This document shows, in pieces, positions 8,681 to 54,491 of a stretch of DNA of 64,000 bases. The position numbers and the translations under genes are program-made. The DNA is from a virus: IMG/VR virus record IMGVR_UViG_3300033153_007262, positions 5,407-69,406 of that record. One strand, written 5' to 3'. Position 1 is the stretch's first letter. The number at the start of each line of letters is the position of its first letter. The notes below the pieces were generated by a model that saw only the letters and a program-made list of their open reading frames with translations, was not told the DNA's origin and made no database searches.

Positions 8681-8722
8681 ACCCCCGGAACATTGGAGGT
8701 TAAATTATAAAGGAGGCAGGAA

Positions 8723-9667
8723 ATGGATATCGATAAAATTCTAGAGAAGGCCTTCACGACCGGTGACCTTGCGTCCGGCGGTCTATTAAATCCAGAGCAG
8801 TCTGCAAAGATGGTTCGTGGGATTTTTGATAAGGCCGTCATCACAACCGAGTCACGTCGTGTGCCGATGAAAGCAAATAAACGGCAGATTGACAAAATCA
8901 CCTACACGGGTGACATTCTGCAAATCCCTACCGCCGTGGGTACAGAACATACCACGACGACAAAGCCGACAACGTCGAAAGTTACGTTAGACGCACAGGA
9001 AGCGATTATAGCAATCGACATTGGTTATGATTCGCTTGAAGATAGTATTGAAGGGCAAGGCCTGATGGATACTATTCTTGAAATCACTTCCGGGCGTCTT
9101 GGTTATGAGTTAGACGTTCTCGCCTTACAGGGCGACGTTGCGGGAGCAACAGGAACCTTCCGTGATTTATTGGACGGGTTCTTCAAACAGGTGACAACGA
9201 ATGTTTATGATGCATCAAACGGAACGTTGTCGGACACGGTTTTGTATAACGCCTTGAAAATGTTGCCGGGTAAGTATCTCGACAATGAAAACGCTTGGCG
9301 CTTCTATACAAGCCATCGTGCAAGATTGGATTATGTCAATGTGTTAGCCGGCAAGGGTGTTAACGAAGCGTTTACTCGTTATTTACTCGAAGCACAAGAG
9401 CCGACTTATCAAGGTATCCCCGTCCGCAAGGTCGGTGGTGTCGAGACAGTCCAACTTGACCCCGGCCCGCCAATTATTTCTGGTGGACAGGCGCTTCTTA
9501 TTAATCCGGCCAATATGATTTTTGGTGTTCATAGGGATATCTCCTATGAATTTATGCGACAGCCTCGCAAACGGGTTATCGAAGTGACAATGACACTGCG
9601 CATCGACTTCAAGTTGGAAGAAGAAACTGCCGTTGTCAAAATCAGCAATTTGGGACACAGCGCTTAG
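8723..9667 (+). CDS. major capsid protein (HK97 fold, XkdG-like)
   Basis: AGGAGG RBS; KAFTTGDLASGGLLNPEQ, LEDSIEG, DGFFKQ, P.N.IFGV.RDI motifs; followed by terminator. Confidence 0.9.
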   Translation: MDIDKILEKAFTTGDLASGGLLNPEQSAKMVRGIFDKAVITTESRRVPMKANKRQIDKITYTGDILQIPTAVGTEHTTTTKPTTSKVTLDAQEAIIAIDIGYDSLEDSIEGQGLMDTILEITSGRLGYELDVLALQGDVAGATGTFRDLLDGFFKQVTTNVYDASNGTLSDTVLYNALKMLPGKYLDNENAWRFYTSHRARLDYVNVLAGKGVNEAFTRYLLEAQEPTYQGIPVRKVGGVETVQLDPGPPIISGGQALLINPANMIFGVHRDISYEFMRQPRKRVIEVTMTLRIDFKLEEETAVVKISNLGHSA

Positions 9668-42781: not shown

Positions 42782-43063
42782 ATGGAAGGATTATCATTGG
42801 GAGGACTGGACGTTTATAGTGCGGGCGGAATATTAGCCGTAGCGATACCGTTCATTGTTCAGCAAATAAAGAAATTGAAATTCATTGGAAATAAGAATGC
42901 GCCAATCCTCGCATTTATTCTCGGTCTTGCCGGAGGCCTTGCCGGGTACTTTACCGGCTTTGCGCCGGAGGGGATGTCGCTAATCCAATCCATCGTGTCG
43001 GGCATTGCGGTCGGGGGAACGTCCTCCGGGTTGTATGACGTAGCCAAAAAAGTCGGCACATAA
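42782..43063 (+). CDS. holin
   Basis: AGGAGG RBS; 3 TM; IVQQIKK...P....GI..G..SSGLYD..K motif. Confidence 0.75.
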   Translation: MEGLSLGGLDVYSAGGILAVAIPFIVQQIKKLKFIGNKNAPILAFILGLAGGLAGYFTGFAPEGMSLIQSIVSGIAVGGTSSGLYDVAKKVGT

Positions 43064-43079
43064 AATCAGGGAATCGACC

Positions 43080-43110
43080 GAGCCGGGGCATCAAACCCCG
43101 GCTCTTTTTT
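43080..43110 (+). terminator. intrinsic terminator ending the late operon
   Basis: GAGCCGGGG/CCCCGGCTC stem followed by 6 T. Confidence 0.85.
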
Positions 43111-43117
43111 ATGCCAA

Positions 43118-43281
43118 AATCCTCGTCGACAAACCCCCTCCCCCGACGACGACGCCCACACCGACGAGGAATTGAAAACCGCACAATTCGTCGACGAGGA
43201 ATCGATATTTCCGACCCACCACACACCCCGGGATTCCCGCCCAAAATGTCACATTTGGAGATTAAATACCTCAATCCTCGT
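43118..43281. repeat. short CGACGAGGA motif repeats (direct and inverted)
   Basis: CGACGAGGAAT at 43162 and 43192; inverted AATCCTCGT at 43118 and 43273. Confidence 0.55.
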
Positions 43282-43372
43282 AGAAATAGATTCGGGCCTT
43301 TCTGAGATGTTGTAACCCTTTGAAACTAGGCGACTTACGTCATTCCCCGTACCCCGCCCGGCCCGGTTTACC

Positions 43373-43401
43373 TTGCTTGTTATGATATATTATATTATAT
43401 T
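43373..43401 (+). promoter_or_regulatory. putative early sigma70-type promoter
   Basis: TTGCTT-17 nt-TATATT in an AT island within GC-rich DNA. Confidence 0.6.
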
Positions 43402-43875
43402 ATAAGTGGGACGGGGAGGGACGCCGAACCACCGGGACGGTCGAGGGCGAGACGCCGGGGAAAGAGAAGGCCGACAGGGATTGACAAAAAGGGAAGCGGA
43501 AACAGGGACGACCAGCCGGGGGAACAGGACGAGGCGGGCCGGACGCAAACCCTCAAGGACACGGCGGAATAAGACCCGGGAGCATAAAGGCGCAAGCCAG
43601 AAACCCGCCCGGAGGACGCCGGCTACCAAAACCGAGAGAAGCCAATAAAGTTTACGGGGCTTGAAAAAACTCAAACCGAAATCGGCGGAAGGTAGATTGA
43701 CCGAATCCCGAAAGGCCCGGTCAAGTGAAAGAGGCAGAGGATTGGAAAAGAAGCAATTTTCAAAAAAAGGTATTTTGCCATATGCCTTAAATAACAATAA
43801 TGGGAATGGCGGGGAACGGCGGTTGCCCCAAATTTTCAAACGCCCTTTTGTCCGTTAAGCCAAACGGAGTTATCA

Positions 43876-43947
43876 GGCGAAAGTCTACGGCCCTTACCCG
43901 GGCCGGTAGGCTCCGCAAGGCGGTCGTTCCCCTTGCGCTGATGAGCC
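43876..43947 (+). ncRNA. hammerhead ribozyme HH0, type II (predicted cut after 43913, CUC)
   Basis: GGC-GAAA-stem III (AGTCTAC..GTAGGCT)-C-stem I (CGCAAGG/CCTTGCG)-CTGATGA-GCC. Confidence 0.85.
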
Positions 43948-43955
43948 AAACGCAA

Positions 43956-44010
43956 ACCCGCTGATGAGACCGGGAGGCACGGTCGAAACGGTATAAAAAA
44001 CCGTCCGGGT
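43956..44010 (+). ncRNA. hammerhead ribozyme HH1, type I (cut after 44005, GUC)
   Basis: ACCCG-CTGATGA-GACCG/CGGTC-GAAA-CGGT/ACCG-TC-CGGGT. Confidence 0.93.
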
Positions 44011-44040
44011 AATAATGCCCAATAAAAACGGAGGTGCATT

Positions 44041-44379
44041 ATGAGAGTACAAATCGATGCAACAATTGAGAAAGCCGACCAGAAATTGGCGGTGGGAACG
44101 GGCCTGCAAGGATATTTCAGCCGAGGCACAACCTACAAAGCGCTAGTTGAAAAGTTAGGAAAGCCAAACGCCGGAGAATCAGGCGACGGCAAGGTCAAGG
44201 CGGAATGGATTGTCAAACTGAAGTTTCATAGGAAAGACCCCGGCATAATATTTACAATCTACGATTATAAATCGTCGGTTGCGCCGGAGGAGAATACCGA
44301 TTGGCACATAGGAGGCAAAGGTCAGGCAATGCTCGAAATCTTTTCCCAAGTAATGGGGATTGGGATTGAGAACGATTAA
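44041..44379 (+). CDS. hypothetical early protein
   Basis: GGAGGT RBS; DGKVKAEW...FTIYDYK...WHIGG common phage small-protein pattern. Confidence 0.8.
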   Translation: MRVQIDATIEKADQKLAVGTGLQGYFSRGTTYKALVEKLGKPNAGESGDGKVKAEWIVKLKFHRKDPGIIFTIYDYKSSVAPEENTDWHIGGKGQAMLEIFSQVMGIGIEND

Positions 44380-44444
44380 CCCGCTGATGAGCCGTTGAGA
44401 TTACGGCGAAACGCCCCGGGGCGCAAGCCCCCGGGCGTCCGGGT
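44379..44444 (+). ncRNA. hammerhead ribozyme HH2, type I (cut after 44439, GUC)
   Basis: ACCCG-CTGATGA-GCCGT/ACGGC-GAAA-CGCCC..GCAA..GGGCG-TC-CGGGT. Confidence 0.93.
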
Positions 44445-44473
44445 AATAATGCCCAAGAAAATGGAGGTGGGAA

Positions 44474-44989
44474 ATGGCATTAGGAACGAATTATAAAAGA
44501 ATCGGAAGGAAGCAAGACCTCATTTTGCGGATTCAAATCGCCCGGGTTGGACATCTTGGCGGGGTTTACGGCAAGATGACGAGGGACGAGGCGGTCGAAA
44601 GTACAAAAGGTTACAGCCGGAAATTAACGGTTGGAGAATTAGCCGAAATATTAAAACCGCTTGAGGCAATAGCAAAGAAGAAAAGGCCGACCGAAGGGAA
44701 ATGGAAATTCGTTTATTCCAAAGGCTTAACGCCGACGGCAAGGATTGTGTCGGTTGATTTGCTAAACAAAGGATACTCGGATTGGATTTGCGAGATGCCC
44801 TTTGGCAGTGAATCGGAAGCGAGGGAGATGGGCGGTAGCCACATCGCCAACGCCCGGTTAATAGCAAGGGCGCCGGAACTAATAGAGAAGTTAAAGGAGG
44901 CTGAAAAGTTTTTGAAAATGCTCGGCGTGAAAGACGAAATTGTTGATGAGATAAATTCATTAATAAATAAAGTTGAGCAGACGAGATAA
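44474..44989 (+). CDS. hypothetical early protein
   Basis: GGAGGT RBS; ANARLIARAPEL motif seen in many phage small proteins. Confidence 0.8.
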   Translation: MALGTNYKRIGRKQDLILRIQIARVGHLGGVYGKMTRDEAVESTKGYSRKLTVGELAEILKPLEAIAKKKRPTEGKWKFVYSKGLTPTARIVSVDLLNKGYSDWICEMPFGSESEAREMGGSHIANARLIARAPELIEKLKEAEKFLKMLGVKDEIVDEINSLINKVEQTR

Positions 44990-44990
44990 A

Positions 44991-45054
44991 ACCCTCTGAT
45001 GAGCCGGCGAGATACCGGCGAAACCGCCCGGGCGCAAGCCCGGACGGTCAGGGT
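44991..45054 (+). ncRNA. hammerhead ribozyme HH3, type I (cut after 45049, GUC)
   Basis: ACCCT-CTGATGA-GCCGG/CCGGC-GAAA-CCG..GCAA..CGG-TC-AGGGT. Confidence 0.93.
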
Positions 45055-45082
45055 AATAATGCCCATAACAAGGAGGTGCATT

Positions 45083-45538
45083 ATGAATAACACGCCGACA
45101 AAAAAGTATCTTCAAGAGAATGTTATTGTTGACGAGGTCAGCAAGAACAAGGCCGGCAATTTTATTTTTAGGGAGGGGTTCTTCTATACGCACGGGCGCA
45201 CGGCAAACAGCCACGCCGACAGCATACAGAAGCAACTTACGGATTTGGGATTTAAGAATTTCAAATTCGTCGACACCGGGGAGCATTGGAGGGAATTCAA
45301 AGGTGGCGCCTCGTTAAGAACGCAGTCGCATTGGTATGTCGAAGTTAAGTTTGACGCCGAGGAGCCGGATGTCACGGCGCCGGTTAAGGTTGGCGACAAG
45401 TTGTACTCTTGGGACGGTAAGATTGGAACGGTAAAGAAGATTCACGCTTTGGGCGATATGGCCGACGTGGATTTTGGCAACGGCAACATTTACGGAATTG
45501 CCTTTAGCCGAATCAAAGGTAGCAAAGTTGGAAAATAA
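45083..45538 (+). CDS. hypothetical early protein (start corrected to ATG 45083)
   Basis: AGGAGGT RBS; C-terminal SH3/KOW-like VKVGDK...G.V segment. Confidence 0.8.
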   Translation: MNNTPTKKYLQENVIVDEVSKNKAGNFIFREGFFYTHGRTANSHADSIQKQLTDLGFKNFKFVDTGEHWREFKGGASLRTQSHWYVEVKFDAEEPDVTAPVKVGDKLYSWDGKIGTVKKIHALGDMADVDFGNGNIYGIAFSRIKGSKVGK

Positions 45539-45604
45539 ACCCGCTGATGAGATTGTGAAAGTCAATCGAAACGCCCCGGGGCGCAAGCCCCCGGGCGTCC
45601 GGGT
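45539..45604 (+). ncRNA. hammerhead ribozyme HH4, type I (cut after 45599, GUC)
   Basis: ACCCG-CTGATGA-GATTG/CAATC-GAAA-CGCCC..GGGCG-TC-CGGGT. Confidence 0.93.
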
Positions 45605-45632
45605 AATAATGCCCAAAACAAGGAGGCGCATT

Positions 45633-45911
45633 ATGAAAAAGACAACGGGATATACGTCAAAGAAGGTTCACTATTGGCAGTTGAACCCAAAAGACCGGGC
45701 AACATATGACCGGCAAGAATCATTAAAAGAAGAAGGGGATTGTGAACGGTTTTATTTTTGGCTGTTCACCCCGGGCATCGGGTACCGGCAAATGGGGTAC
45801 ACCGAGGGATACAAAACGGTCGAGGCGCTAAAGGAACATTGCATTAATAATCGTACCGATTGTATTTACCGCATTACAAGGTCACAGATTTGTCTTTCAA
45901 ATAAAAGATAA
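45633..45911 (+). CDS. hypothetical early protein (start ATG 45633), paralog of 46416..46676
   Basis: AGGAGG RBS; ERFYFWLF...RQMGYTEGYKT. Confidence 0.8.
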   Translation: MKKTTGYTSKKVHYWQLNPKDRATYDRQESLKEEGDCERFYFWLFTPGIGYRQMGYTEGYKTVEALKEHCINNRTDCIYRITRSQICLSNKR

Positions 45912-45912
45912 A

Positions 45913-45970
45913 ACCCTCTGACGAGTCTTTGAAAATTAAGACGAAACCGCCGGCCCCCGGCGGTCAGGGT
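45913..45970 (+). ncRNA. hammerhead ribozyme HH5, type I (cut after 45965, GUC)
   Basis: ACCCT-CTGACGA-GTCTT/AAGAC-GAAA-CCGCCGG/CCGGCGG-TC-AGGGT. Confidence 0.93.
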
Positions 45971-45999
45971 AATAATGCCCATAAAACAGGAGGTGCATT

Positions 46000-46323
46000 A
46001 TGGTAAAACGAATCGATAAATTAAAAAAGTTGGTAGCGGAGTTTGAGTCCTTGCAGAAAAGGTACAAACATACCGGCGCCGACGACACCGAGCCGGACGC
46101 ACAGTTTCAGTTACGCTTGGTACAGTTTTATCAAGGGAATAGCGAGTTGCCGGCAAGAAGAGAATGGGAACTATACTCGGGCCATAAAAGGCACGACGAG
46201 GTTGCCGACCTTTTGACGGCGAAGTTAAAAGAAATCCGAACAGTTATTCACGGCTCGACGGATAGTAACCACGAGGAAATAAAAACATACCTCGAGGAAT
46301 ATGTTTGGAGAATAGATTTTTAA
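46000..46323 (+). CDS. hypothetical early protein
   Basis: AGGAGGT RBS; GADDTEPD motif. Confidence 0.8.
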   Translation: MVKRIDKLKKLVAEFESLQKRYKHTGADDTEPDAQFQLRLVQFYQGNSELPARREWELYSGHKRHDEVADLLTAKLKEIRTVIHGSTDSNHEEIKTYLEEYVWRIDF

Positions 46324-46388
46324 CCCTCTGACGAGTCGTTGAAAATTACGACGAAATATTCCCCGGCGACGCCGGGGGATATCAGGGT
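46323..46388 (+). ncRNA. hammerhead ribozyme HH6, type I (cut after 46383, AUC)
   Basis: ACCCT-CTGACGA-GTCGT/ACGAC-GAAA-TATTCCCCGGC/GCCGGGGGATA-TC-AGGGT. Confidence 0.93.
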
Positions 46389-46415
46389 AATGATGCCCAT
46401 AAAAAGGAGGACGTT

Positions 46416-46676
46416 ATGGAAAAGAAAAAGACGACCCAAACGTGGGAAATGACAAAGAAGGAATTGCGGGCGCAAACGTTGGACAAGTCAAAAGCAGAAT
46501 CATATGAAACAGAACGATTTTACTTTTGGCTGTTCTCGGAAGCCGGCGGTTGGAGGCAGTTGGGATACACCGAGGGGTACAAAACGGAAAAGGCATTGAG
46601 AGAAGATAATAAATATCATTTCGATAAGAAAGATATTATCCGCATTACAAAATCAACGATTATTAAAAGAGGCTAA
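46416..46676 (+). CDS. hypothetical early protein, paralog of 45633..45911
   Basis: AGGAGG RBS; ERFYFWLF...RQLGYTEGYKT. Confidence 0.8.
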   Translation: MEKKKTTQTWEMTKKELRAQTLDKSKAESYETERFYFWLFSEAGGWRQLGYTEGYKTEKALREDNKYHFDKKDIIRITKSTIIKRG

Positions 46677-46731
46677 CCCGCTGATGAGATTGTGAAATTC
46701 AATCGAAACGCCCGGCGACGGGCGTCCGGGT
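46676..46731 (+). ncRNA. hammerhead ribozyme HH7, type I (cut after 46726, GUC)
   Basis: ACCCG-CTGATGA-GATTG/CAATC-GAAA-CGCCCG-GCGA-CGGGCG-TC-CGGGT. Confidence 0.93.
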
Positions 46732-46760
46732 AATGATGCCCATAAAATGGGAGGTGTATT

Positions 46761-47237
46761 ATGAGCGAGAAAGCATATCTGAAAAAGAAAGGACGCCTTG
46801 AGTGTATGGTCGAGGTTGCAGAATCGGAGATTGAGTTTATAGACGGCTCAATCGAAAAGGTAAAAGAGAAAGCCGAACGACAAATCAAAAAGTTGTTAGA
46901 GATGTCCGGCAAGATTGAAGACCGCCGGGACAAATACAACGACCAGATTAAACAAATTGATGAACAACTCGGCGCTTGCCAGAAAAGAAAAGTTGCCAAG
47001 ACACAGGTACTTGCCGGCGAGGACAAATCGGTATGGGTGTTTTACGAAGCCTACGACTTTGTTGCCGAGGCAAAGATTGAGGCGCTTGGAAAGAAATTGA
47101 AATTAAAAAGAGAAGGAAGCGGTGGAGGATTCCAATCGTCAAAGAGAGATATCTCGTTTGGCCTCGGGGGTAACCCAAAGGAAAAAATCCTCAAAGCATT
47201 CCGTAAACTAAAAGATGTGACGGCAAGGATTTATTAA
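46761..47237 (+). CDS. hypothetical early protein, N-terminal coiled coil
   Basis: GGAGGT RBS; 158-aa ORF. Confidence 0.8.
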   Translation: MSEKAYLKKKGRLECMVEVAESEIEFIDGSIEKVKEKAERQIKKLLEMSGKIEDRRDKYNDQIKQIDEQLGACQKRKVAKTQVLAGEDKSVWVFYEAYDFVAEAKIEALGKKLKLKREGSGGGFQSSKRDISFGLGGNPKEKILKAFRKLKDVTARIY

Positions 47238-47238
47238 A

Positions 47239-47293
47239 ACCCTCTGACGAGTCCGTGCAACCCGGACGAAACGCCCCGGTGGGGCGTCAGGGT
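47239..47293 (+). ncRNA. hammerhead ribozyme HH8, type I (cut after 47288, GUC)
   Basis: ACCCT-CTGACGA-GTCCG/CGGAC-GAAA-CGCCCC/GGGGCG-TC-AGGGT. Confidence 0.93.
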
Positions 47294-47315
47294 AACCCAT
47301 AACAAGGAGGACGGA

Positions 47316-47531
47316 ATGAGTAAGCAACCACCGAGACCGTACTTCGGTACGGATTGGACAGGAAAATGTATCACGAGCAGTTATATGAGTGTCGAACGTG
47401 TAGAAAAAGAAATCCTAAGTCGATGGGGAGCCGAGAACAGGTGGGGCTACCGCCCCGGGACTTATAAAGTCATCGACGTGAAAAGAAATGTTTACAAGGA
47501 AATAAGAATTGAGAGAAGAGAAACCCTCTGA
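47316..47531 (+). CDS. hypothetical early protein
   Basis: AAGGAGG RBS; its TGA stop lies inside the HH9 core. Confidence 0.75.
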   Translation: MSKQPPRPYFGTDWTGKCITSSYMSVERVEKEILSRWGAENRWGYRPGTYKVIDVKRNVYKEIRIERRETL

Positions 47532-47588
47532 GGAGTCTTTGGAAATTAAGACGAAATATTCCCCGGCGACGCCGGGGGATATCAGGGT
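47523..47588 (+). ncRNA. hammerhead ribozyme HH9, type I (cut after 47583, AUC)
   Basis: ACCCT-CTGAGGA-GTCTT/AAGAC-GAAA-TATTCCCCGGC/GCCGGGGGATA-TC-AGGGT. Confidence 0.92.
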
Positions 47589-47624
47589 AATAAAATCCAT
47601 AACAATTTAACACAGGAGGTGTCT

Positions 47625-48074
47625 ATGGAATTTATGTACAACGATGGAGGACGTGAGGACGCCGGGTATAAAGGTAGCGCCGGAGACTGCGTCGTCCGTG
47701 CCATCTCAATCGCAACCGGGAAGCCTTACCAAGAGGTGTACGACAAATTGAAAGACGCAAACCTCACGTTTGCATACACAAAAAGATGTCGTGTCGCCCG
47801 GAAGTTATTAAAGAGAGGCAGTACGCCGAGAAACGGGAATTACAAAAAAGTGTATCGGAAGTATTTAGAGGCGCTTGGATGGAAGTGGACACCGACGATG
47901 TTCATCGGTAGCGGGTGCAAAGTCCACCTCAAAAAAGACGAGTTGCCCGGCGGTAAACTTATTGTAAATGTTTCAAAGCATATAACTGCGGTTGTCGACG
48001 GAGTTATCAATGACACATTTGACTGCTCGAGGGACGAGACAAGATGTGTGTACGGATATTACATCAAAAACTAA
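47625..48074 (+). CDS. conserved phage protein, possible papain-like (Cys-His-Asp) fold
   Basis: AGGAGGT RBS; GDCVVRAI...KHITAVVDG...DTFD. Confidence 0.7.
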   Translation: MEFMYNDGGREDAGYKGSAGDCVVRAISIATGKPYQEVYDKLKDANLTFAYTKRCRVARKLLKRGSTPRNGNYKKVYRKYLEALGWKWTPTMFIGSGCKVHLKKDELPGGKLIVNVSKHITAVVDGVINDTFDCSRDETRCVYGYYIKN

Positions 48075-48120
48075 AGAGAACCCCGGCGAGGGTTTCCTCG
48101 CCCCAAACAAGGAGGGCAAG

Positions 48121-48522
48121 TTGAAGATTGTAAAATTCATTGTGCCGGAGAATTTGAAAGCCGGTGAGATTTACCCCGACCATAAAGTAATCGCTTATGG
48201 TGAAGTTGCGGGTGACAGCGGACAAGTTTACGACGTCGGGCGGTACGCCGACCTCGAATACTTCTGTTCGTGCAAGGGCCGGTTATTCAACCGGCAAAGC
48301 GAATGCAAACACATTCGGTTGTTCAAAGAACGGGAAGCCGACGAGATTATTGCGGAGGACGACCCGACCGAGACCCCCGGCGCCGAGTTTTGGAAGTCGG
48401 AATGGTGTGACTGTAACAAAGAGGACGCCCCGGTATTTTTTGACGACGGGGAGTGTTCTTGCGGAACGGTGAAGCATCATTATCATTGTAAATTCTGCGG
48501 TAAGATTACACAGATTGGATAA
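48121..48522 (+). CDS. SWIM zinc-finger protein (TTG start 48121)
   Basis: AAGGAGG RBS; CSC...CKH SWIM motif plus C-terminal Cys/His cluster. Confidence 0.7.
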   Translation: MKIVKFIVPENLKAGEIYPDHKVIAYGEVAGDSGQVYDVGRYADLEYFCSCKGRLFNRQSECKHIRLFKEREADEIIAEDDPTETPGAEFWKSEWCDCNKEDAPVFFDDGECSCGTVKHHYHCKFCGKITQIG

Positions 48523-48581
48523 TACAAACAACCCGGGGCGTGGGTATAAACGCTCACGCCTCCAAACAGGAGGAGAAGAAA

Positions 48582-49559
48582 ATGGCACACGCAGTTAACG
48601 AAGGGAAGCGAATGTTTTATGTTGGCGAGGTACCGTGGCACGGATTAGGCACGGCCCTCGACAAGCCGGCTACGTCGGTCGAGGCAATTGCATCGGCGCA
48701 GTTGGATTATCCCATCGAGTTAAAAGAAATACAGACCGTCGATGGCAGAATGATTGACGGGAAGCGGGCAACGGTGAGAGGCGATACAAAAGTCCCCCTC
48801 GGTGTTGTCGGTGACGGATATCGTGTTGTCCAGAACGTCGAAGCATTTAGTTTCTTCGACGAGGTGGTCGGCGAAGGTCAAGCCATCTATCATACCGCCG
48901 GGGCTTTAGGAGCCGGGGAACGAATTTGGATACTTGCGAAGTTGCCGGGCGAGTTAATTATAGGGAAGGAAGACAAGGTTGATGAATATCTTTGTCTTAC
49001 TAATTCCCACGACGGCAGAAGTTCGTTAAAAATGTATTTCACGCCAATCCGAGTTGTTTGTCAGAACACGTTGTCGATGTCAATGAAGGACGCTAAAGAC
49101 GGCGTTTCGATTCGACACTCCGGCAACATTAAAACTAAAGTTGAAAAGGCGCAGGAAACTTTACGCCTTGCGACAAAGTTTTATCAGGAGTTCGGCGAGG
49201 TAGCAAAGCAGTTAGGAAACACAAAGTTAAAAAAGGAACAGGTCGAGGGATATTTTACCGCCCTGTTGTTCAAAGGAGACAAGGAAAAAGAAAAAACGTC
49301 TGTGCAACTTAAACGTCAGAGAAATGAATTGTTGGCGCTGTGGGAACACGGCAAGGGCAACGATATCAAAGACATTAAGCACAGCGCTTGGACGGCCTAC
49401 AATTCCGTAACGGAATATGTTGACCATCACAAAACGTTCAAAGGCATTCAGAAAGACCCGTCGACCAGATTAAAAAATATCTGGTTCGGCACCGGGGCGA
49501 TTACGAAAGGCCGGGCGTTTGATGGCATTTTAGAAACAGCCGGTATCAAGGTAGGATAA
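48582..49559 (+). CDS. DUF932 family phage/plasmid protein
   Basis: AGGAGG RBS; PWHGLG, Y.VVQN.EAF.F, TAGAL..G, NSHDG, PIRVVCQNT motifs. Confidence 0.85.
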   Translation: MAHAVNEGKRMFYVGEVPWHGLGTALDKPATSVEAIASAQLDYPIELKEIQTVDGRMIDGKRATVRGDTKVPLGVVGDGYRVVQNVEAFSFFDEVVGEGQAIYHTAGALGAGERIWILAKLPGELIIGKEDKVDEYLCLTNSHDGRSSLKMYFTPIRVVCQNTLSMSMKDAKDGVSIRHSGNIKTKVEKAQETLRLATKFYQEFGEVAKQLGNTKLKKEQVEGYFTALLFKGDKEKEKTSVQLKRQRNELLALWEHGKGNDIKDIKHSAWTAYNSVTEYVDHHKTFKGIQKDPSTRLKNIWFGTGAITKGRAFDGILETAGIKVG

Positions 49560-49628
49560 TTACCAGACGGCCCGGGAGGGTGGCTCGCTACGGCGGGTTG
49601 CCCTCCCTTAAAGAAGGGAGTACGCCTT

Positions 49629-49868
49629 ATGGGAAAGAGCAAAGCAGAAACATTATTGAAATGGATACTGTGGCATTACCCGAACGGATATTTTAGGACA
49701 TCCGTCCGGGGTGTCCCGTGCCTCGTCGTTAAAAAAGGCAACACCGAGTTGGGCGTTGCATATTTTGGCAAGTCGGATTCGTTCAGAATGTTTGCCAATG
49801 ACGTCGGCGAGAAGTGGGATATTAAAACAAAAGAAGAGGTTATCGAATACCTGAAGGGAGGTGATTAA
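49629..49868 (+). CDS. hypothetical protein
   Basis: AGGGAG RBS. Confidence 0.7.
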   Translation: MGKSKAETLLKWILWHYPNGYFRTSVRGVPCLVVKKGNTELGVAYFGKSDSFRMFANDVGEKWDIKTKEEVIEYLKGGD

Positions 49869-50355
49869 TTTGAACCTCAAACAATTAAAAAGATTGTCAA
49901 AGGTCGCTAAGAAAAACTCGGCAGAGGTTTTGCAGTATGTTGTTATAACCCCCGAGCATTTAATTGTGACCGACGGCAAAGTGTTATTCAAAGAGAAGCA
50001 TTACAGCCGTAACCCGCCGGCGGAGACGTGTTATATCAAGCACGATGCGGTGGCTTCATTAAAAGGAACGATGTTTATAATCCGGGACGGCATTGGCTCG
50101 ACGGACAAAGGTACGATTGAGGTAAAAATGAAAACCGACGTTCAGTACCCGAATTGTGAAAATCTGCTAAAGACAGTGAGGAAGGGCGAGAGGCTCCACC
50201 GGGTTAAACTATACGGGGAGGTATTAAAAACGCTCGCCGATTCATTGGACAAGGAAGCAAAATATGAATTTCAATTCCCAAAAGACCCCGGGCAACCGAT
50301 TATTATTACCGGGCCGGTTGGCGTTGAGATTTTACTTTGCCCCCTGTATAAATAA
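49861..50355 (+). CDS. truncated beta-sliding-clamp-like protein
   Basis: VTDGKVL, YPNCENLL, PIII, ILLCP resemble DnaN domain II/III motifs (ATDGHRL, YP.Y..VI, LMP). Confidence 0.5.
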   Translation: MINLNLKQLKRLSKVAKKNSAEVLQYVVITPEHLIVTDGKVLFKEKHYSRNPPAETCYIKHDAVASLKGTMFIIRDGIGSTDKGTIEVKMKTDVQYPNCENLLKTVRKGERLHRVKLYGEVLKTLADSLDKEAKYEFQFPKDPGQPIIITGPVGVEILLCPLYK

Positions 50356-50369
50356 AAGAAAGGAAGCGA

Positions 50370-50615
50370 ATGCCAAGAAAAGATGTAGGAGACACAGACG
50401 CAATCCGGGTTTACCTCGGTAAGAAAGCGGGGGCTTGGACGATTGAGCCACCGAGAATTGTTGTAAAAGAATGGGCAGAGATGCGAGGCGTGAACACGTC
50501 GGGGACGGGAAGATGGAATATCAAACAGACGCACGATATTCTAATCGTCGCCCAATCGATTAAGGAAATAACAAAATTAATCAAGGCGTATCGGCGCAAG
50601 AATCAAATCCTCTGA
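50370..50615 (+). CDS. hypothetical protein
   Basis: AAGGA RBS; TGA stop inside the HH10 core. Confidence 0.7.
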   Translation: MPRKDVGDTDAIRVYLGKKAGAWTIEPPRIVVKEWAEMRGVNTSGTGRWNIKQTHDILIVAQSIKEITKLIKAYRRKNQIL

Positions 50616-50674
50616 TGAGACCGTGAGAGCCGGTCGAAACGCCCCGGGTGATTACCCGACCGGGGCGTCAGGAT
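50607..50674 (+). ncRNA. hammerhead ribozyme HH10, type I (cut after 50669, GUC)
   Basis: ATCCT-CTGATGA-GACCG/CGGTC-GAAA-CGCCCCG../..CGGGGCG-TC-AGGAT; compensatory change in stem I. Confidence 0.92.
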
Positions 50675-50699
50675 AACCATAACAAAGGAGGTGAGATAA

Positions 50700-50960
50700 A
50701 TGAAAAGAGCAGTCGCAGAAATAATTGTTGACCTCTTACAAGACGCCGGACACGACGCCAAGATTTACGAAGGGTATAGTGGCCGGGGGATGTTTGGGGT
50801 GGAGACGACCGGCATTGATACGTCGGCAACTTCCGAGTATGTTGCCGGGCTTGTTGCCGGCAAGAAAGACAAAGAAGAGTTTGACGAAAAAGAACGGGCG
50901 TTGTTGAACGCCGTTGTTATACGAGGAGATAATTTAGGGTTGGGCTACATCGTATATTAA
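50700..50960 (+). CDS. hypothetical early protein
   Basis: AGGAGGT RBS; YSGRGMFG...DNLGLGYIVY common phage small-protein motif. Confidence 0.8.
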   Translation: MKRAVAEIIVDLLQDAGHDAKIYEGYSGRGMFGVETTGIDTSATSEYVAGLVAGKKDKEEFDEKERALLNAVVIRGDNLGLGYIVY

Positions 50961-50977
50961 AAAAGGGAGGAGTTGGA

Positions 50978-51166
50978 ATGACACAGATGAGAAGGACAAT
51001 CGAATCGCATATGCGAATGAAATTCCACGATGACCACGGCCTCGATGCAAATATATCCGCAAAAGAAATCCGGCGAATATACATCGAGGGGATGGAAAGG
51101 TTCCTCGCATTTGTTAATGAGGAATTCAAGAAGTTGATAGTGAAGAATAAAAAGGAGGACATATGA
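50978..51166 (+). CDS. hypothetical protein
   Basis: GGAGG RBS. Confidence 0.65.
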   Translation: MTQMRRTIESHMRMKFHDDHGLDANISAKEIRRIYIEGMERFLAFVNEEFKKLIVKNKKEDI

Positions 51167-51921
51167 GCAAACTCAGGTTCAACGACGGCGAGGAGTTTGA
51201 CACCGCCGGGGAGTTAAGGAAAGAAAGAAGAGCCGATGGCTGGTATGTCATCGGCAAGGGAATGCTAATCCCGTTAGAGACCGAGGTCTTGTGCGATAAA
51301 TATCTCGCTAAGGCCCGGGCGGAAGCAAATCGAAAAGAAGAAGAACGGGATTGGGACATCAAGCACGGGTACAACCCCGAGTGTCCTAAATGCCAATTGC
51401 ATCACGACCCAAACAAGAAAGAAGAATGCGGGAAGTTACCGCACGAGCAGATGCAAGAAGCCGAACCGCTAAAAATGTATGTTTTGCGCCGGGATGGTTC
51501 GCCGGTGATAGAGGTCGGCAGTAATAAACACCGGCCTTTTACGAAAGAGGGCCTTGACCGGGCTTTGGATGTTGTAAACGAATTCGCAGTTGAGTTGCGG
51601 AAGGATTGGGACAGCAAAGATTGGTTCCCTTGCGGATTTGTGAATCTAAAGATACCGATTGGCAGTACCCTCGACGTGTTCCTCAAAAAGAATAATGACA
51701 AGCCGGACGGCCCGGAGGGAAGTTTTGCATATCGAAACTTGTCCTCTACCCGAGGCTACGCCGACCCGGAGCAACGCCTCATATATTTGAGGATTCCGAA
51801 CGTCGACAAAGACGCCCTCGCTTCACAATGTATGAAATACAAACAGAGAGTTTACGAACAATTTCAAATCCTCTTGGCCCTTTTGTCGGTCACGTCCGGG
51901 CTTGAAACAGTAATTGATTAA
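51163..51921 (+). CDS. hypothetical protein
   Basis: AGGAGG RBS; CPKC..H..C cluster; PCGF motif. Confidence 0.7.
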   Translation: MSKLRFNDGEEFDTAGELRKERRADGWYVIGKGMLIPLETEVLCDKYLAKARAEANRKEEERDWDIKHGYNPECPKCQLHHDPNKKEECGKLPHEQMQEAEPLKMYVLRRDGSPVIEVGSNKHRPFTKEGLDRALDVVNEFAVELRKDWDSKDWFPCGFVNLKIPIGSTLDVFLKKNNDKPDGPEGSFAYRNLSSTRGYADPEQRLIYLRIPNVDKDALASQCMKYKQRVYEQFQILLALLSVTSGLETVID

Positions 51922-51931
51922 GGAGAAGCAA

Positions 51932-52267
51932 ATGAAAAAAGTTGTAATTGAAGGTTGGAGAACGGACAGGGGATGCTCGTTGACGGTTGACGGGCAACCC
52001 CTCGTAATGAAAATCGCATTGCATTCCCCGACGGGATTCGAGTGGGGCTACGGCGGTAGCGGGCCGGCGGAAACGTCGTTCTATATTTTGACCGCCGTTG
52101 CCGTGGCCCGGGATTGGAAAGACCTCTGCGTCCCCATATGGTTGTATCAGCAATTCAAATGGGACTTCGTCGCAAAGTGGGAAGGGAATCATATCAAAGA
52201 ATTTATTGATATCGATGCGTGGTTCAAGAAACAAAAATGGGATGGGAAGGTAGGTGAAATGAAATGA
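51932..52267 (+). CDS. DUF6166-like protein
   Basis: AAGGAG RBS; HSPTGFEWGYGGSGPA...YQQFKWDFVA. Confidence 0.75.
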   Translation: MKKVVIEGWRTDRGCSLTVDGQPLVMKIALHSPTGFEWGYGGSGPAETSFYILTAVAVARDWKDLCVPIWLYQQFKWDFVAKWEGNHIKEFIDIDAWFKKQKWDGKVGEMK

Positions 52268-52500
52268 AAAACAAGAAGGGATATCGAACCTCCGCACGCC
52301 TCCGGCACACGTTGGACATTGCCGGCGCCTGTGGATTCGGTTATAACAGCGAGAAGTACCCCAACGGAGGGTTCCTCGACGTGTTTCAATTAGAGTTAGT
52401 TATAATTAAACTTCGGCAACTTGAAATGCAAGTCGCCGGTCTTACCAAAAAAGAAGCAAAAGAAATTGAGGGTGGAGGATTTGATTCTACAATACATTGA
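52264..52500 (+). CDS. hypothetical protein
   Basis: ATGA coupling to upstream gene. Confidence 0.6.
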   Translation: MKNKKGYRTSARLRHTLDIAGACGFGYNSEKYPNGGFLDVFQLELVIIKLRQLEMQVAGLTKKEAKEIEGGGFDSTIH

Positions 52501-52533
52501 ACAGCAGAAGGGACTTTCGCCAAGACAAAATTA

Positions 52534-52567
52534 GCGCCCCGGGATATCCTCCCGGGGTGTTTTTTTT
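52534..52567 (+). terminator. intrinsic terminator ending the early operon
   Basis: GCGCCCCGGG/CCCGGGGTGT stem followed by long T tract. Confidence 0.85.
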
Positions 52568-52582
52568 CTTTCTTAAAATCTG

Positions 52583-52611
52583 TTGACATAAAATTTCACT
52601 TATATTATAAT
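52583..52611 (+). promoter_or_regulatory. consensus sigma70 promoter
   Basis: TTGACA-17 nt-TATAAT. Confidence 0.9.
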
Positions 52612-52639
52612 CTATTATAATTGAGAGAGGAGGTTTGTC

Positions 52640-52834
52640 GTGCAAAAATGCGTTTATATTCCAGAGACTCCCGTGAACAGAAAAGTCCTTGACCGAGTCA
52701 AAAAGTTAGAGCAAGATTACTCTGTCAGTTTTTCAGAAGTGGTTGTGCAAGCGTTAAAGGATTTAGTCGCCGTACCCCGGCCAAAGAAGACAAAGGGAGA
52801 TTTCAGAAGTGCTAAACTTGGATTGTTGCGGTAA
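52640..52834 (+). CDS. small ribbon-helix-helix-like DNA-binding protein
   Basis: AGGAGG RBS; VYIP strand followed by helices ending SFSEVVVQAL. Confidence 0.5.
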   Translation: MQKCVYIPETPVNRKVLDRVKKLEQDYSVSFSEVVVQALKDLVAVPRPKKTKGDFRSAKLGLLR

Positions 52835-54491
52835 TCAAAGAGATATATTTGTCGTAGATTTTTGGGGAAATGAATTCCGGGCGTATGTCAGCGCCGTGAA
52901 GTCTTTACCGTCGAGTACATACAAGCCGGCGTTAAAGAAATGGCACGTCAAACTTTATGATTATTCATTGTTGATGAAGGAGTTGGACGCCCGGAAATTA
53001 AACCATATCGTCCATTCTGAAAGTTTTGCATCCCTCATAAAATTATATCAAGATTGGGAAACCCGGACGAAGGATTTACTTGCCCTTGAGGACACGTCTG
53101 TCCCGAATATCGAAGCCCTATTAAAACACCCGCTTATGAAACATCAACGGGTGGCGTGTAAGGTTTTGAACGAATTAAAAATATTATTACTCGCCGACCA
53201 AATGGGCGTCGGCAAAACCCTCCCGGCCATAGCCACGGCTCAATTATTAAAAACACAAGACGAAATAAAATCGTGTCTAATTATCTGCACGGCGTCCACG
53301 AAGGGGAATTGGACGAAGGAGATGGACAAGTTTTTGAAGGAATCCGAGTGGGCGATTATCGAAGGGACGCAGTCTGCCCGGGGCGAGGTGTATTCTTGCG
53401 ACGCATTTTTCAAGGTCGTCAATTACGAATTGTTGCGCCGGGATATCTTATTGTTTGAGGACAGTATGACGTACGACTTAATCATTGCGGACGAGGTTCA
53501 TCGGATTAGAAACCACACCGCCCTACAGTCAAAGGCTGTGGCGAAGTTGGGGCGCAAGGCAAAGTACCGATGGGGGTTAACCGGCACGCCGGTACATAAT
53601 AAAATCGAAGATTTATTTGCCGTGATGAAATTTATTCAGCCGACGATGTTTGGCAATTGGTATCATTTCGACAAGCGTTATATTGAGCGAGGGTTCTTTG
53701 GCGAGGTCACCGGCTATAAAAACCGGGACGAGATTAGGGACAAATTAAAACTGATTATGTTGCGCCGGCGGAAAGAGGACGTCCTCGGGGAGTTACCGCC
53801 GAAGGTCTATAACAATGTTTACGTTGAATTAACTAAGGCGCAGAGGAAATTTTATCAGCACATCGTTGACCAGAACATAAAATTAAATTTCAATAAAGAG
53901 GCGGAGGAAAAGATTAACGAAGCAAATCCCCTCGCCAAGACAACGTACGCCCGGGAGTGTTGCGACAGCACGGAGTTGATTGACCAGACGGGCCGGGAGT
54001 CGGCAAAATTAAAGGCGATGCACGAAGTCGTTGATGAATTTATCGGTGACGGGCGCAAGGTCGTCATATTCACGCAGTTTTCAAAGATGGGCGCAATCAT
54101 CCAACGGGAGTTAAAACACCCGTCCGTCTTTCTGCACGGCGGGGTATCCACGCAGAATAACGTACGTCAAGAATTAATTGAAAAATTTACGAATGACCCG
54201 GCGCTCCCGATACTTATAACAACGACTGCCGGGGGAGAAGGAATCAATTTACAATGTGCCGAGGCGATAATATTTTTTGACTTGCCGTTCAATCCGCAAA
54301 TCATCGCCCAAGTTGAAGACCGGCTCCACCGCAAAGGACAAACCGGGACGGTCAACGTCGTCCGGCTGATTGCAACCGATACTGTGGAGGAACGGGTGTT
54401 GGAAATTCTCGAAGCCAAACAGGATTTATTCGACGCCCTCATAGAAAACGATATGGTTCTGTCCACGAAGCAGATACTCAAATTACTCTAA
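52809..54491 (+). CDS. SNF2-family helicase/ATPase
   Basis: LADQMGVGKT, DEVH, LTGTP, GGEGINLQ, QVEDRLHRKGQ. Confidence 0.9.
   Translation: MLNLDCCGNQRDIFVVDFWGNEFRAYVSAVKSLPSSTYKPALKKWHVKLYDYSLLMKELDARKLNHIVHSESFASLIKLYQDWETRTKDLLALEDTSVPNIEALLKHPLMKHQRVACKVLNELKILLLADQMGVGKTLPAIATAQLLKTQDEIKSCLIICTASTKGNWTKEMDKFLKESEWAIIEGTQSARGEVYSCDAFFKVVNYELLRRDILLFEDSMTYDLIIADEVHRIRNHTALQSKAVAKLGRKAKYRWGLTGTPVHNKIEDLFAVMKFIQPTMFGNWYHFDKRYIERGFFGEVTGYKNRDEIRDKLKLIMLRRRKEDVLGELPPKVYNNVYVELTKAQRKFYQHIVDQNIKLNFNKEAEEKINEANPLAKTTYARECCDSTELIDQTGRESAKLKAMHEVVDEFIGDGRKVVIFTQFSKMGAIIQRELKHPSVFLHGGVSTQNNVRQELIEKFTNDPALPILITTTAGGEGINLQCAEAIIFFDLPFNPQIIAQVEDRLHRKGQTGTVNVVRLIATDTVEERVLEILEAKQDLFDALIENDMVLSTKQILKLL

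What the first reader, a model, noticed from the sequence alone, without database searches (positions are those of the whole stretch)
43876..50674. Array of 11 hammerhead ribozymes that would cut the phage early transcript into single-gene RNAs
Seen in sequence: ten type I hammerheads (starts 43956, 44379, 44991, 45539, 45913, 46323, 46676, 47239, 47523, 50607) plus one type II (43876). Each has the invariant core CUGANGA / GAAA / NUH (GUC, AUC or CUC). Stems II and III differ in sequence yet stay paired, and stem I covaries (ACCCG/CGGGT, ACCCT/AGGGT, ATCCT/AGGAT). From 44.0 to 47.6 kb there is exactly one ribozyme at every gene boundary, each cutting 27-41 nt upstream of an ATG with a strong SD. 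All lie between one promoter (about 43373-43401) and one terminator (52534-52567). Established: hammerhead cleavage gives 5'-OH and 2',3'-cyclic phosphate ends; scattered hammerheads are known near phage genes; T7 cuts its early RNA with host RNase III. Inference: this is a protein-independent, self-processing operon that turns a polycistron into monocistronic units with uniform ends. 5'-OH ends are poor substrates for 5'-monophosphate-stimulated RNase E/J. I do not know of a described one-ribozyme-per-gene system on this scale.
Basis: partly seen in the sequence, partly recalled or inferred. Interest (0 to 1): 0.97.

Follow-up and report, generated by a model that had tools for sequence, protein, structure and literature searches.

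The report
Hammerhead ribozyme array in phage operon
An uncultivated phage places ten well-formed self-cutting hammerhead RNAs, and probably an eleventh, directly after the stop codons of its small accessory genes, most likely chopping one long transcript into single-gene messages; this layout has been known in phages since 2011, and this is a large, very regular example.

Summary
All ten type I hammerheads sit at the stated coordinates on the + strand. Each has a complete catalytic core and three paired stems that covary. The eleventh, a type II, is probable only: 30.3 bits against Rfam's cut-off of 37. A competing fold can bury its core.

Nine ribozymes occupy nine consecutive gene boundaries from 43956 to 47588. 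The upstream stop codon ends within -2 to +8 nt of the ribozyme's first base. The predicted cut lies 27-41 nt before a start codon with a GGAGG-type ribosome site.

Self-processing of one transcript is the best reading but is untested. No sequencing run could be listed.

It is not a new kind. Perreault et al. 2011 (PMC3088659, passages read) described clustered hammerheads flanking single genes in prophages and proposed the same processing. Earlier notes of this scan report arrays of 7 to about 25 on other DNA.

Verdict: a new member of a known kind, of moderate interest.

The parts
43373..43401 (+). Promoter-like site TTGCTT-17-TATATT heading the operon
   Evidence: Sequence read. The scan lists the overlapping 43367-43396 at 9/12. 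The previous + strand terminator is at 43080-43104. This is a consensus match only.
43409..43875 (+). 467-nt leader with no convincing gene; its first 150 nt are 3% T
   Evidence: this is the lowest T fraction of any 150-nt stretch in the window (median 25%). No Rfam hit.
43875..43951 (+). Probable type II hammerhead; predicted cut after 43913
   Evidence: RF02276 scores 30.3 bits (gathering 37), E 0.006. The core is intact. Stem II has only 3 bp. A 4-bp loop I/3'-tail pairing (43925-43928 with 43949-43952) is possible (read). The MFE fold instead pairs 43870-43876 with the CUGAUGA core.
43956..44010 (+). Type I hammerhead 1; cut after 44005; 35-nt leader to ATG 44041
   Evidence: R1 45.6 bits (not a seed). 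Canonical MFE fold. Leader length.
44379..44444 (+). Type I hammerhead 2; cut after 44439; shares 1 nt with stop codon TAA 44377-44379
   Evidence: R1 85.5 bits..
44991..45054 (+). Type I hammerhead 3; cut after 45049
   Evidence: R1 72.4 bits..
45539..45604 (+). Type I hammerhead 4; cut after 45599; starts the base after stop TAA 45536-45538
   Evidence: R1 83.3 bits..
45913..45970 (+). Type I hammerhead 5; cut after 45965
   Evidence: R1 59.9 bits (not a seed)..
46323..46388 (+). Type I hammerhead 6 (AUC site); cut after 46383
   Evidence: R1 78.6 bits..
46676..46731 (+). Type I hammerhead 7; cut after 46726
   Evidence: R1 62.4 bits (not a seed)..
47239..47293 (+). Type I hammerhead 8; cut after 47288; 27-nt leader
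   Evidence: R1 60.9 bits (not a seed). RF00163 23.8 bits (gathering 34).
47523..47588 (+). Type I hammerhead 9 (AUC site, CUGAGGA core); cut after 47583; the upstream gene's stop codon is the UGA of the core (47529-47531)
   Evidence: R1 76 bits..
50607..50674 (+). Type I hammerhead 10 (stem I AUCCU/AGGAU); cut after 50669; the upstream stop is the UGA of the core (50613-50615)
   Evidence: R1 75.6 bits..
44041..48074 (+). Nine small genes (71-171 aa), each preceded by one hammerhead: 44041-44379, 44474-44989, 45083-45538, 45633-45911, 46000-46323, 46416-46676, 46761-47237, 47316-47531, 47625-48074
   Evidence: Starts with GGAGG-type sites. Only PHROGs of unknown function match (phrog_1273, 16722, 3754), and no Pfam family reaches its cut-off. 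45633-45911 and 46416-46676 are paralogues: 42.5% identity, E 2e-17.
48085..48102 (+). Plain hairpin in a gene gap without a ribozyme
   Evidence: MFE of the gap is -16.9 kcal/mol, z -1.3 (weak).
48535..48562 (+). Plain 11-bp hairpin before the DUF932 gene
   Evidence: -19.1 kcal/mol, z -3.3.
49574..49607 (+). Plain 15-bp hairpin after the DUF932 gene
   Evidence: -34.3 kcal/mol, z -3.0.
48121..50615 (+). Five genes with no hammerhead before them (48121-48522, 48582-49559 DUF932, 49629-49868, 49870-50355, 50370-50615)
   Evidence: DUF932 E 1.5e-65.
50700..52500 (+). Last five genes of the unit (50700-50960 after hammerhead 10; then 50978-51166, 51163-51921, 51932-52267 DUF6166, 52264-52500)
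52533..52571 (+). Intrinsic terminator closing the unit, followed by a 12/12 consensus promoter at 52583-52611
   Evidence: 12-pair stem with 8 G-C pairs and a T-run.

Best explanation
Ten type I hammerheads, and probably one type II, are transcribed as part of one roughly 9-kb + strand unit of small phage accessory genes (about 43.4-52.6 kb). Each most likely folds as it leaves the polymerase and cuts itself after C17.

Each cut leaves an upstream RNA that ends, right after its stop codon, in the compact ribozyme body (stems II and III) with a 2',3'-cyclic phosphate. It leaves a downstream RNA that starts with a 5'-OH, 27-41 nt before a strong ribosome site and start codon.

The result would be nine single-gene RNAs (44.0-48.1 kb), one five-gene block (48.1-50.7 kb) and one final five-gene block, each with standardised ends and its own lifetime and translation context.

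Shown here: the motifs, their placement, and their covariation across phages. Inferred: that they cut in vivo, that one transcript spans them, and every downstream effect on stability or translation.
For: - Core and stems: 10 of 10 copies have an intact core and intact core-adjacent pairs. R1 separates the 10 copies (45.6-85.5 bits) from the background (14.2 bits or less).
- Covariation: across 46 aligned members from the window and 26 IMG/VR loci, 99.2% of cells are paired, against 22-41% when partners are slid. 14 of 17 pairs show double changes, and 0 of 500 shuffles reach the observed value. That alignment is fitted to the model.
- Within the window alone, stem I pairs 1 and 4, stem II pairs 2-5 and stem III pairs 2-4 show compensatory changes.
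- Placement: 9 of 9 hammerheads that follow a gene begin within -2 to +8 nt of the end of its stop codon. 10 of 10 are followed by a GGAGG-type site and a start codon 27-41 nt after the cut.
- All are on the coding strand. Between the + strand terminators at 43080-43104 and 52533-52561 the scan lists only two weak + strand terminator-like matches, each with 5-6 stem pairs.
- The same stop / hammerhead / leader / ribosome-site grammar recurs in unrelated phages of different G+C. G001 has 8 copies in 5.6 kb, and the G006 locus L187 has 10 in 4.5 kb. Only one gene family (DUF932, 33% identity) was found shared between the window's array and the G001/G002 arrays. L187 was not compared.
- Precedent: tandem prophage hammerheads cleave within ~2-kb native transcripts in vitro (PMC3088659, passage read).
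Against: - No cleavage or transcript data exist for this phage.
- None of the ten reaches an Rfam gathering score (best RF00163 23.8 against 34, RF03152 28.5 against 56.3).
- Stem I is only 5 bp, and I found no conserved loop II/stem I tertiary contact, which natural fast hammerheads normally have.
- The nearest-neighbour ensemble gives the strict hammerhead fold a probability of 0.07-0.40 in isolation. With 100 nt upstream and 40 nt downstream it falls below 0.05 for 8 of 10 copies. Only 7 of 10 isolated elements have the canonical fold as MFE. This energy model ignores tertiary stabilisation and co-transcriptional order.
- The promoter is a 9/12 match, so a single transcript is assumed, not shown.
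- 9 of the 19 gene starts carry no ribozyme.
Confidence: 0.7

Rival explanations
1. Cleavage is conditional rather than constitutive. Each ribozyme starts at, or contains, the upstream stop codon, so a terminating ribosome would cover stem I and the CUGA core. Cutting would then be gated by translation of the upstream gene. Alternatively a downstream hairpin competes for the 3' strand of stem I. The array would tune polycistronic against monocistronic forms.
For: The stop codon ends -2 to +8 nt from the ribozyme start in 9 of 9 cases; in 2 cases it is the UGA of the core. The same tight packing appears in L062 (5 of 8, with an upstream frame of at least 77 codons) and L187 (8 of 10, at least 54 codons). 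Adding 40 nt of downstream sequence lowers the predicted hammerhead fold sharply, for example 0.39 to 0.001 at 44379. Seven of 10 leaders contain GGGUA-N4-UGCCC or a shorter version.
Against: Tight packing may simply reflect phage genome economy. The swap control does not support a leader hairpin matched to its own 5' end: the probability that the 5' end is paired is 0.33 own against 0.30 swapped (window), 0.44 against 0.42 (L062) and 0.70 against 0.66 (L187). Ribosome-site accessibility does not change consistently on cleavage.
Confidence: 0.12
2. The repeats matter mainly at the DNA level. The ~95-nt module of hammerhead plus leader would be a portable cassette boundary that promotes recombination, duplication and exchange of accessory genes. 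Ribozyme activity would be secondary.
For: The copies are mosaics. 44379 and 45539 share an identical stem III but have different stems II. 45539 and 46676 share stem II (1 difference) but not stem III. 46323 and 47523 share stem III, while 45913 and 47523 share stem II (1 difference). Two flanked genes are paralogues. Gene content is not conserved between arrays, and the DUF932 gene follows a hammerhead in G001 but a plain hairpin here. 0 of 24 DUF932-relative loci hold an R1 hit.
Against: Recombination alone would not keep every catalytic nucleotide in 10 of 10 copies. Nor would it keep compensatory stem changes across phages of different G+C. This reading is compatible with the main explanation rather than exclusive of it.
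Confidence: 0.08
3. Units flanked by two hammerheads are circularised, because 5'-OH plus 2',3'-cyclic phosphate are the ends joined by RtcB or by hammerhead reversal. This would give exonuclease-proof circular mRNAs.
For: The end chemistry fits, from established knowledge. Neighbouring ribozymes have near-identical stem I, so a unit's 5' end could dock on the ribozyme body at its own 3' end.
Against: The core-adjacent stem I pair matches between consecutive ribozymes in only 3 of 8 units (order G,G,U,G,U,U,G,U,U read), about what chance gives. Perreault et al. looked for spliced or circular products and detected none (PMC3088659, passage).
Confidence: 0.04
4. The motifs are inactive or very slow relics. 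Processing, if any, is done by host RNases acting on the hairpins.
For: All copies are below the Rfam gathering scores. Stem I is short, no tertiary contact was identified, and the predicted occupancy in context is low.
Against: The core is perfect in 10 of 10 copies, and the covariation implies purifying selection on the catalytic architecture. Rfam scores are low largely because the stems and loops differ from the seed families.
Confidence: 0.05

Closest known systems
Clustered hammerhead ribozymes flanking single genes or short gene blocks in prophages (Perreault et al. 2011, PLoS Comput Biol, PMC3088659; passages read, figures and supplements not seen)
   Same: Several same-strand hammerheads of mixed types I and II sit between small phage genes of varying identity. 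[quoted passage not shown]
   Different: This array is longer and more regular: 10-11 copies, with 9 consecutive boundaries. The ribozymes are fused to the stop codon and followed by a near-uniform leader. The tested published sets were tandem or triple arrangements. I could not see Figure 3 or Dataset S1, so the largest published cluster is unknown to me.
Type I hammerhead, Rfam RF00163, and RAGATH-1 hammerhead, RF03152
   Same: Same catalytic core, the same three-way junction, and an open stem I.
   Different: Scores are below both gathering cut-offs. The element lacks the upstream hairpin and the minimal stem II of the RAGATH-1 consensus as shown in the alignments. It has a 5-bp stem II with a U-G-A-R-A-rich loop and a nearly invariant CCC/GGG stem I.
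RiboJ-type synthetic insulators: a hammerhead plus a 23-nt hairpin placed before the ribosome site (described in PMC7536230, passage read)
   Same: A ribozyme cuts off the upstream context and leaves a short standard leader, with a possible hairpin, in front of the ribosome site.
   Different: RiboJ is engineered, is used once per transcription unit, and derives from a plant satellite RNA (that origin is recalled, not from a call). The natural leader hairpin proposed here is not supported by my swap control.
RNase III processing of the phage T7 early polycistronic RNA (recalled from general knowledge; no paper read here)
   Same: One early phage transcript is cut between genes into mostly single-gene mRNAs that end in hairpins.
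   Different: T7 depends on a host protein enzyme and yields 5'-phosphate and 3'-OH ends. Here the RNA would cut itself and leave 5'-OH and cyclic-phosphate ends.
glmS ribozyme with RNase J1 decay (review PMC3328962, passage read)
   Same: Self-cleavage leaves a 5'-OH on the coding RNA.
   Different: There the 5'-OH marks the mRNA for RNase J1 degradation. This shows that the outcome of hammerhead cutting for the downstream gene depends on the host, which is unknown for this phage.

Membership tests
Hammerhead ribozyme (any type) | Conserved core C3 U4 G5 A6 N7 G8 A9 / G12 A13 A14 / A15.1-U16.1 / H17 (criteria quoted in PMC3088659 Methods) | tested here: met
   10 of 10 type I copies: CUGAUGA in 6, CUGACGA in 3, CUGAGGA in 1; GAA in 10; A-U in 10; C17 in 10. 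The type II candidate also has all core positions.
Hammerhead ribozyme (any type) | Three helices around the core with no mispair next to the core (10.1-11.1, 1.1-2.1, 15.1-16.1) | tested here: met
   G-C in 10 of 10, G-C or U-A in 10 of 10, A-U in 10 of 10; 99.2% of cells paired over 46 members, and 14 of 17 pairs with double changes.
Hammerhead ribozyme (any type) | Mg2+-dependent self-cleavage after H17 | not testable with these tools
Hammerhead ribozyme (any type) | Tertiary contact between stem I and stem II elements that gives fast cleavage at cellular Mg2+ | tested here: inconclusive
   No conserved pseudoknot was found by eye between loop II (listed) and the flanks. Stem I CCC/GGG is nearly invariant (45/46, 45/46 and 40/46 C-G), which may mark a contact, but this is inference.
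Rfam RF00163 Hammerhead_1 | Score at or above the curated gathering score (34 bits) | tested here: not met
   0 hits at gathering. The best is 23.8 bits at 47238-47293. I file the elements as type I by topology and core, not by the Rfam score.
Rfam RF02276 Hammerhead_II | Gathering score of 37 bits; loop I / 3'-tail pseudoknot | tested here: not met
   30.3 bits. A 4-bp candidate pairing, 43925-43928 with 43949-43952, was read only. A competing 7-bp helix covers the core. I therefore call it 'probable'.
Rfam RF03152 RAGATH-1 hammerhead | Gathering score of 56.3 bits; 5' accessory hairpin and minimal stem II, as in the model consensus | tested here: not met
   21.5-28.5 bits. The accessory hairpin columns are unmatched or mispaired in the alignments. 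Not a member.
Clustered phage hammerheads (Perreault 2011) | Several hammerheads in one orientation flanking single genes or short blocks in phage or prophage DNA | tested here: met
   10 copies on the + strand within 6.7 kb of an IMG/VR virus record. PHROG hits to the neighbouring genes.

The most novel reading that the evidence does not exclude
The stop-codon / hammerhead / uniform-leader module would be a natural insulator grammar coupled to the ribosome. The terminating ribosome of gene n occludes stem I and the core, so it times cleavage. After the cut, the released stem I strand refolds with the leader, which makes the cut irreversible and caps the 5'-OH end. Each accessory gene would then get an mRNA lifetime set by its own translation. 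The modules would double as recombination joints that let phages swap such genes.
Probability: 0.12. Interest if true: 0.65.

Novelty: new member of a known kind. Interest (0 to 1): 0.35.

Why it matters
The biological role of bacterial and phage hammerheads is still described as largely elusive (review PMC6765202, passage read). A 9-in-a-row array offers a clean natural test bed. It has uniform leaders, stop codons fused to the ribozymes, and internal controls: gene gaps in the same operon that carry only plain hairpins. It could show whether ribozyme punctuation changes mRNA stability and translation, and how 5'-OH and cyclic-phosphate ends fare in a given host.

The subfamily also escapes every Rfam gathering threshold, so arrays like this are probably under-annotated in viral metagenomes. 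The concept itself is not new.

Tried and rejected
- Rfam at gathering thresholds over the whole window gave 0 hits. Permissive scans gave only sub-threshold hammerhead families and no twister, pistol, hatchet or HDV-like hit at E up to 10 in 43000-53000, or up to 1 in the whole window.
- A 15-nt leader word scanned in IMG/VR returned 50 single, apparently chance matches and was uninformative.
- Relatives found through the DUF932 protein: 24 loci at 28-41% identity, and 0 of 24 with an R1 hit.
- Relatives found through the helicase 52809-54491: none in IMG/VR. GenBank phages match only at about 30% identity, with the best rows from phages of Thermoanaerobacterium, Bacillus, Clostridium and Streptococcus. 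This is a weak host hint that I do not rely on.
- blastn of one module against GenBank phages: no match.
- A pattern scan of one genome per prokaryote species found 69 stretches, all with a single match, spread over many phyla. It gave no array and no host clue.
- The look-up of sequencing runs: no RNA holder listed and none of any kind listed.
- Leader hairpin and ribosome-site exposure: the predictions are inconsistent between copies, and the own-versus-swapped 5' end control shows no difference. I do not claim a conserved post-cleavage hairpin.
- Circularisation design: stem I matches between neighbours in 3 of 8 units, about chance.
- The three gene gaps without ribozymes hold plain hairpins and no recognised RNA family.
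- No tRNA or tmRNA in the window.
- Literature searches for a later description of large phage hammerhead arrays found nothing beyond Perreault 2011 and the 2019 review. The library lacks most subscription journals, and supplements are closed, so Figure 3, Figures S1-S2 and Dataset S1 of Perreault 2011 were not seen.
- On recount it is 7 of 10.

Full report
**What the window is.** The window is bases 5407-69406 of a 69,406-b linear IMG/VR virus record, which CheckV estimates to be 76% complete. All large reading frames run on the + strand. Genes around the finding match phage protein families: DUF932/phrog_1221, a phrog_62 helicase, and several PHROGs of unknown function.

**Checking the observation.**
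- The loose core pattern CTGANGAG-N(8-36)-CGAAA occurs 11 times, all on the + strand, against 0.21 expected from shuffles.
- Ten of these lie between 43961 and 50639. The eleventh, at 19057, is not supported by any model.
- In isolation 7 of 10 have the canonical three-way junction as minimum-energy fold.
- Rfam finds nothing at its curated thresholds. Permissive scans give only sub-threshold hits: RAGATH-1 hammerhead 21.5-28.5 bits against a cut-off of 56.3, Hammerhead_1 23.8 against 34, and Hammerhead_3 up to 25.5 against 48.5.
- I built a covariance model (R1) from six copies with the textbook structure. With filters off it scores all ten at 45.6-85.5 bits, including the four copies left out of the seed at 45.6-62.4 bits. 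The next hit anywhere in the window scores 14.2 bits. The full record holds the same ten and no more.

**Covariation.**
- Inside the window, stem I alternates G-C and U-A at the core-adjacent pair (4 against 6 copies) and has one C-G to U-A change at pair 4.
- Stem II pairs 2-5 take two or three different Watson-Crick pair types each, and stem III pairs 2-4 do likewise.
- I then aligned 46 members, from the window and from 26 IMG/VR loci found by pattern scan, to R1. In that alignment 99.2% of cells are standard pairs, against 22-41% when the 3' partners are slid by 1-3 columns. Of 17 pairs, 14 show changes on both sides, and 0 of 500 shuffles reach the observed values.
- That alignment is fitted to the model, which favours the structure. 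The slid controls and the within-window counts point the same way.

**The eleventh element.**
- 43875-43951 matches Rfam's type II model at 30.3 bits (cut-off 37), with E 0.006 for the 10-kb search and 0.04 for the window.
- All core positions are present, and stems I and III are good. Stem II has only three pairs.
- A four-pair contact between loop I (43925-43928) and the tail just after stem II (43949-43952) is possible. That is the kind of pseudoknot Perreault et al. describe for type II, but I only read it off the sequence.
- The minimum-energy fold instead pairs 43870-43876 with the CUGAUGA core, an inactive alternative.
- I call this element probable, at roughly 0.6.

**Placement.**
- Gene starts were fixed by ribosome sites.
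- Nine hammerheads occupy the nine consecutive positions in front of the genes at 44041, 44474, 45083, 45633, 46000, 46416, 46761, 47316 and 47625. The tenth precedes the gene at 50700.
- For all 9 that follow a gene, the stop codon ends between 2 nt before and 8 nt after the first base of the ribozyme. In two cases (47529-47531 and 50613-50615) the stop codon is the UGA of the CUGA core.
- The cut lies 27-41 nt before the next start codon, and each leader holds a GGAGG-type site.
- Nine of the 19 gene starts in the unit have no ribozyme. Three of those gaps hold plain hairpins at 48085-48102, 48535-48562 and 49574-49607.
- Strong + strand terminators stand at 43080-43104 and 52533-52561. Apart from two weak matches of 5-6 stem pairs, nothing terminator-like lies between them on the + strand.
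- The proposed promoter is a modest match. The next unit has a perfect 12/12 promoter at 52583-52611.

**Relatives.**
- Scanning IMG/VR for the core plus the 3' stem I word returned 41 stretches, and a relaxed version 74. Most have one copy.
- R1 finds 8 copies within 5.6 kb of a complete 92.7-kb record (G001; locus L062) and the same 8 in a near-identical 69-kb record (G002).
- It finds 10 copies within 4.5 kb of locus L187, from a complete 62-kb, high-G+C record (G006). The whole-record search, which uses a looser first filter, listed 8 of these.
- Reading both arrays shows the same grammar: stop codon, hammerhead, short leader, ribosome site, start.
- Only the DUF932 gene was found shared between this window's array and the G001/G002 arrays, at 33% identity. 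There it follows a hammerhead; here it follows a plain hairpin. L187 was not included in that protein comparison.
- None of 24 loci encoding DUF932 relatives has an R1 hit.
- So the ribozymes are facultative punctuation that recurs in separate phage lineages. They are not a fixed partner of particular genes.

**How it most likely works.** The shown facts are the motifs, their conservation and their position. It then follows from established hammerhead chemistry that cutting after C17 leaves a 2',3'-cyclic phosphate on an upstream RNA whose last ~55 nt are the two ribozyme hairpins. It leaves a 5'-OH on a downstream RNA that begins ~30 nt before its start codon. I infer that the structured, cyclic-phosphate 3' end shields each message from 3' exonucleases and from tailing. 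I also infer that cutting frees each ribosome site from upstream context, as the engineered RiboJ parts do (PMC7536230, passage read).

The fate of the 5'-OH end is open. In B. subtilis the glmS 5'-OH product is degraded by RNase J1 (PMC3328962, passage read). The host of this phage is unknown, and helicase matches at about 30% identity to phages of Firmicutes are only a hint.

**Caveats on activity.**
- Stem I is short, and I could not identify the tertiary contact typical of fast natural hammerheads.
- The near-invariance of the CCC/GGG pairs of stem I, beside freely covarying stems II and III, suggests some sequence-specific role. That is inference.
- The thermodynamic ensemble gives the strict hammerhead fold a probability of 0.07-0.40 alone. 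With 60 nt of upstream RNA it is at or above 0.05 for 8 of 10 copies.
- Once 40 nt of downstream RNA are added it falls below 0.05 for 8 of 10. The ribozymes may therefore have to act co-transcriptionally.

**Sub-hypotheses tested.**
- A post-cleavage 5' hairpin (GGGUA-N4-UGCCC) is predicted in some leaders. It competes with a second hairpin that closes at the start codon.
- Swapping 5' ends between units of one array does not lower the predicted pairing of the 5' end in any of the three arrays. I do not claim a conserved leader hairpin.
- Circular mRNAs are not favoured by the order of stem I variants, which match in 3 of 8 units. Perreault et al. did not detect circular products.
- The copies are clearly mosaics of shared stem II and stem III modules, and two flanked genes are paralogues. 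Recombination between modules has evidently happened, and a role as cassette joints may coexist with RNA processing.

**Comparison with what is known.** Perreault et al. [quoted passage not shown] The 2019 review (passage read) repeats this idea and calls the biology largely elusive. My three literature searches for a later account of large arrays found none. The library is incomplete and supplements were closed.

Earlier notes of this scan, which are unchecked AI notes, list phage arrays of 7, 9, 10, 12, 22 and 'up to about 25' copies on other DNA. The two further arrays I verified myself agree with that picture.

**Verdict.** This is a new, large and unusually regular member of a known kind. 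The subfamily is one that Rfam's thresholds miss. Interest is moderate.

Noticed in passing
window 43409-43875: The leader after the promoter-like site is extremely poor in T: 3% in 43409-43560, the lowest of any 150-nt stretch in the window, where the median is 25%. It has no convincing gene. The leader before the G001 array (L062 about 291-450) is likewise the T-poorest stretch of its locus (8.7% against 21%), yet shows no sequence similarity. GGA occurs 23 times against 15.9 +/- 3.1 in mononucleotide shuffles. Function unknown.
   Followed up: partly
window 43870-43944: UUAUCAG at 43870-43876 is complementary to the CUGAUGA core of the type II candidate, and the two pair in the minimum-energy fold (-38.8 kcal/mol, z -2.9). 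This is a possible off-state or chance.
   Followed up: partly
window 43914-44005: If both the type II and the first type I ribozyme cut, a 92-nt non-coding RNA would be released between them.
   Followed up: no
window 45633-45911 and 46416-46676: Two hammerhead-flanked small genes are paralogues (42.5% identity over 80 aa, E 2e-17). No Pfam or PHROG match.
   Followed up: partly
window 44379-47588: The ribozyme copies are mosaics. Identical or near-identical stem II and stem III modules occur in different combinations, for example 44379/45539, 45539/46676, 46323/47523 and 45913/47523.
   Followed up: partly
window 48085-48102, 48535-48562, 49574-49607: Three gene gaps without ribozymes hold plain hairpins. 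The first two are followed by CCAAACA plus a ribosome site. No Rfam family matches.
   Followed up: partly
window 52583-52611: A perfect 12/12 sigma-70 consensus promoter (TTGACA-17-TATAAT) stands right after the operon's terminator and heads the helicase/replication block.
   Followed up: no
L187 (record G006), minus strand 5091-9605: A complete 62-kb high-G+C phage carries 10 type I hammerheads of the same subfamily in 4.5 kb. Stem I varies, and the leader word CUACCAGAAAGGA recurs.
   Followed up: partly
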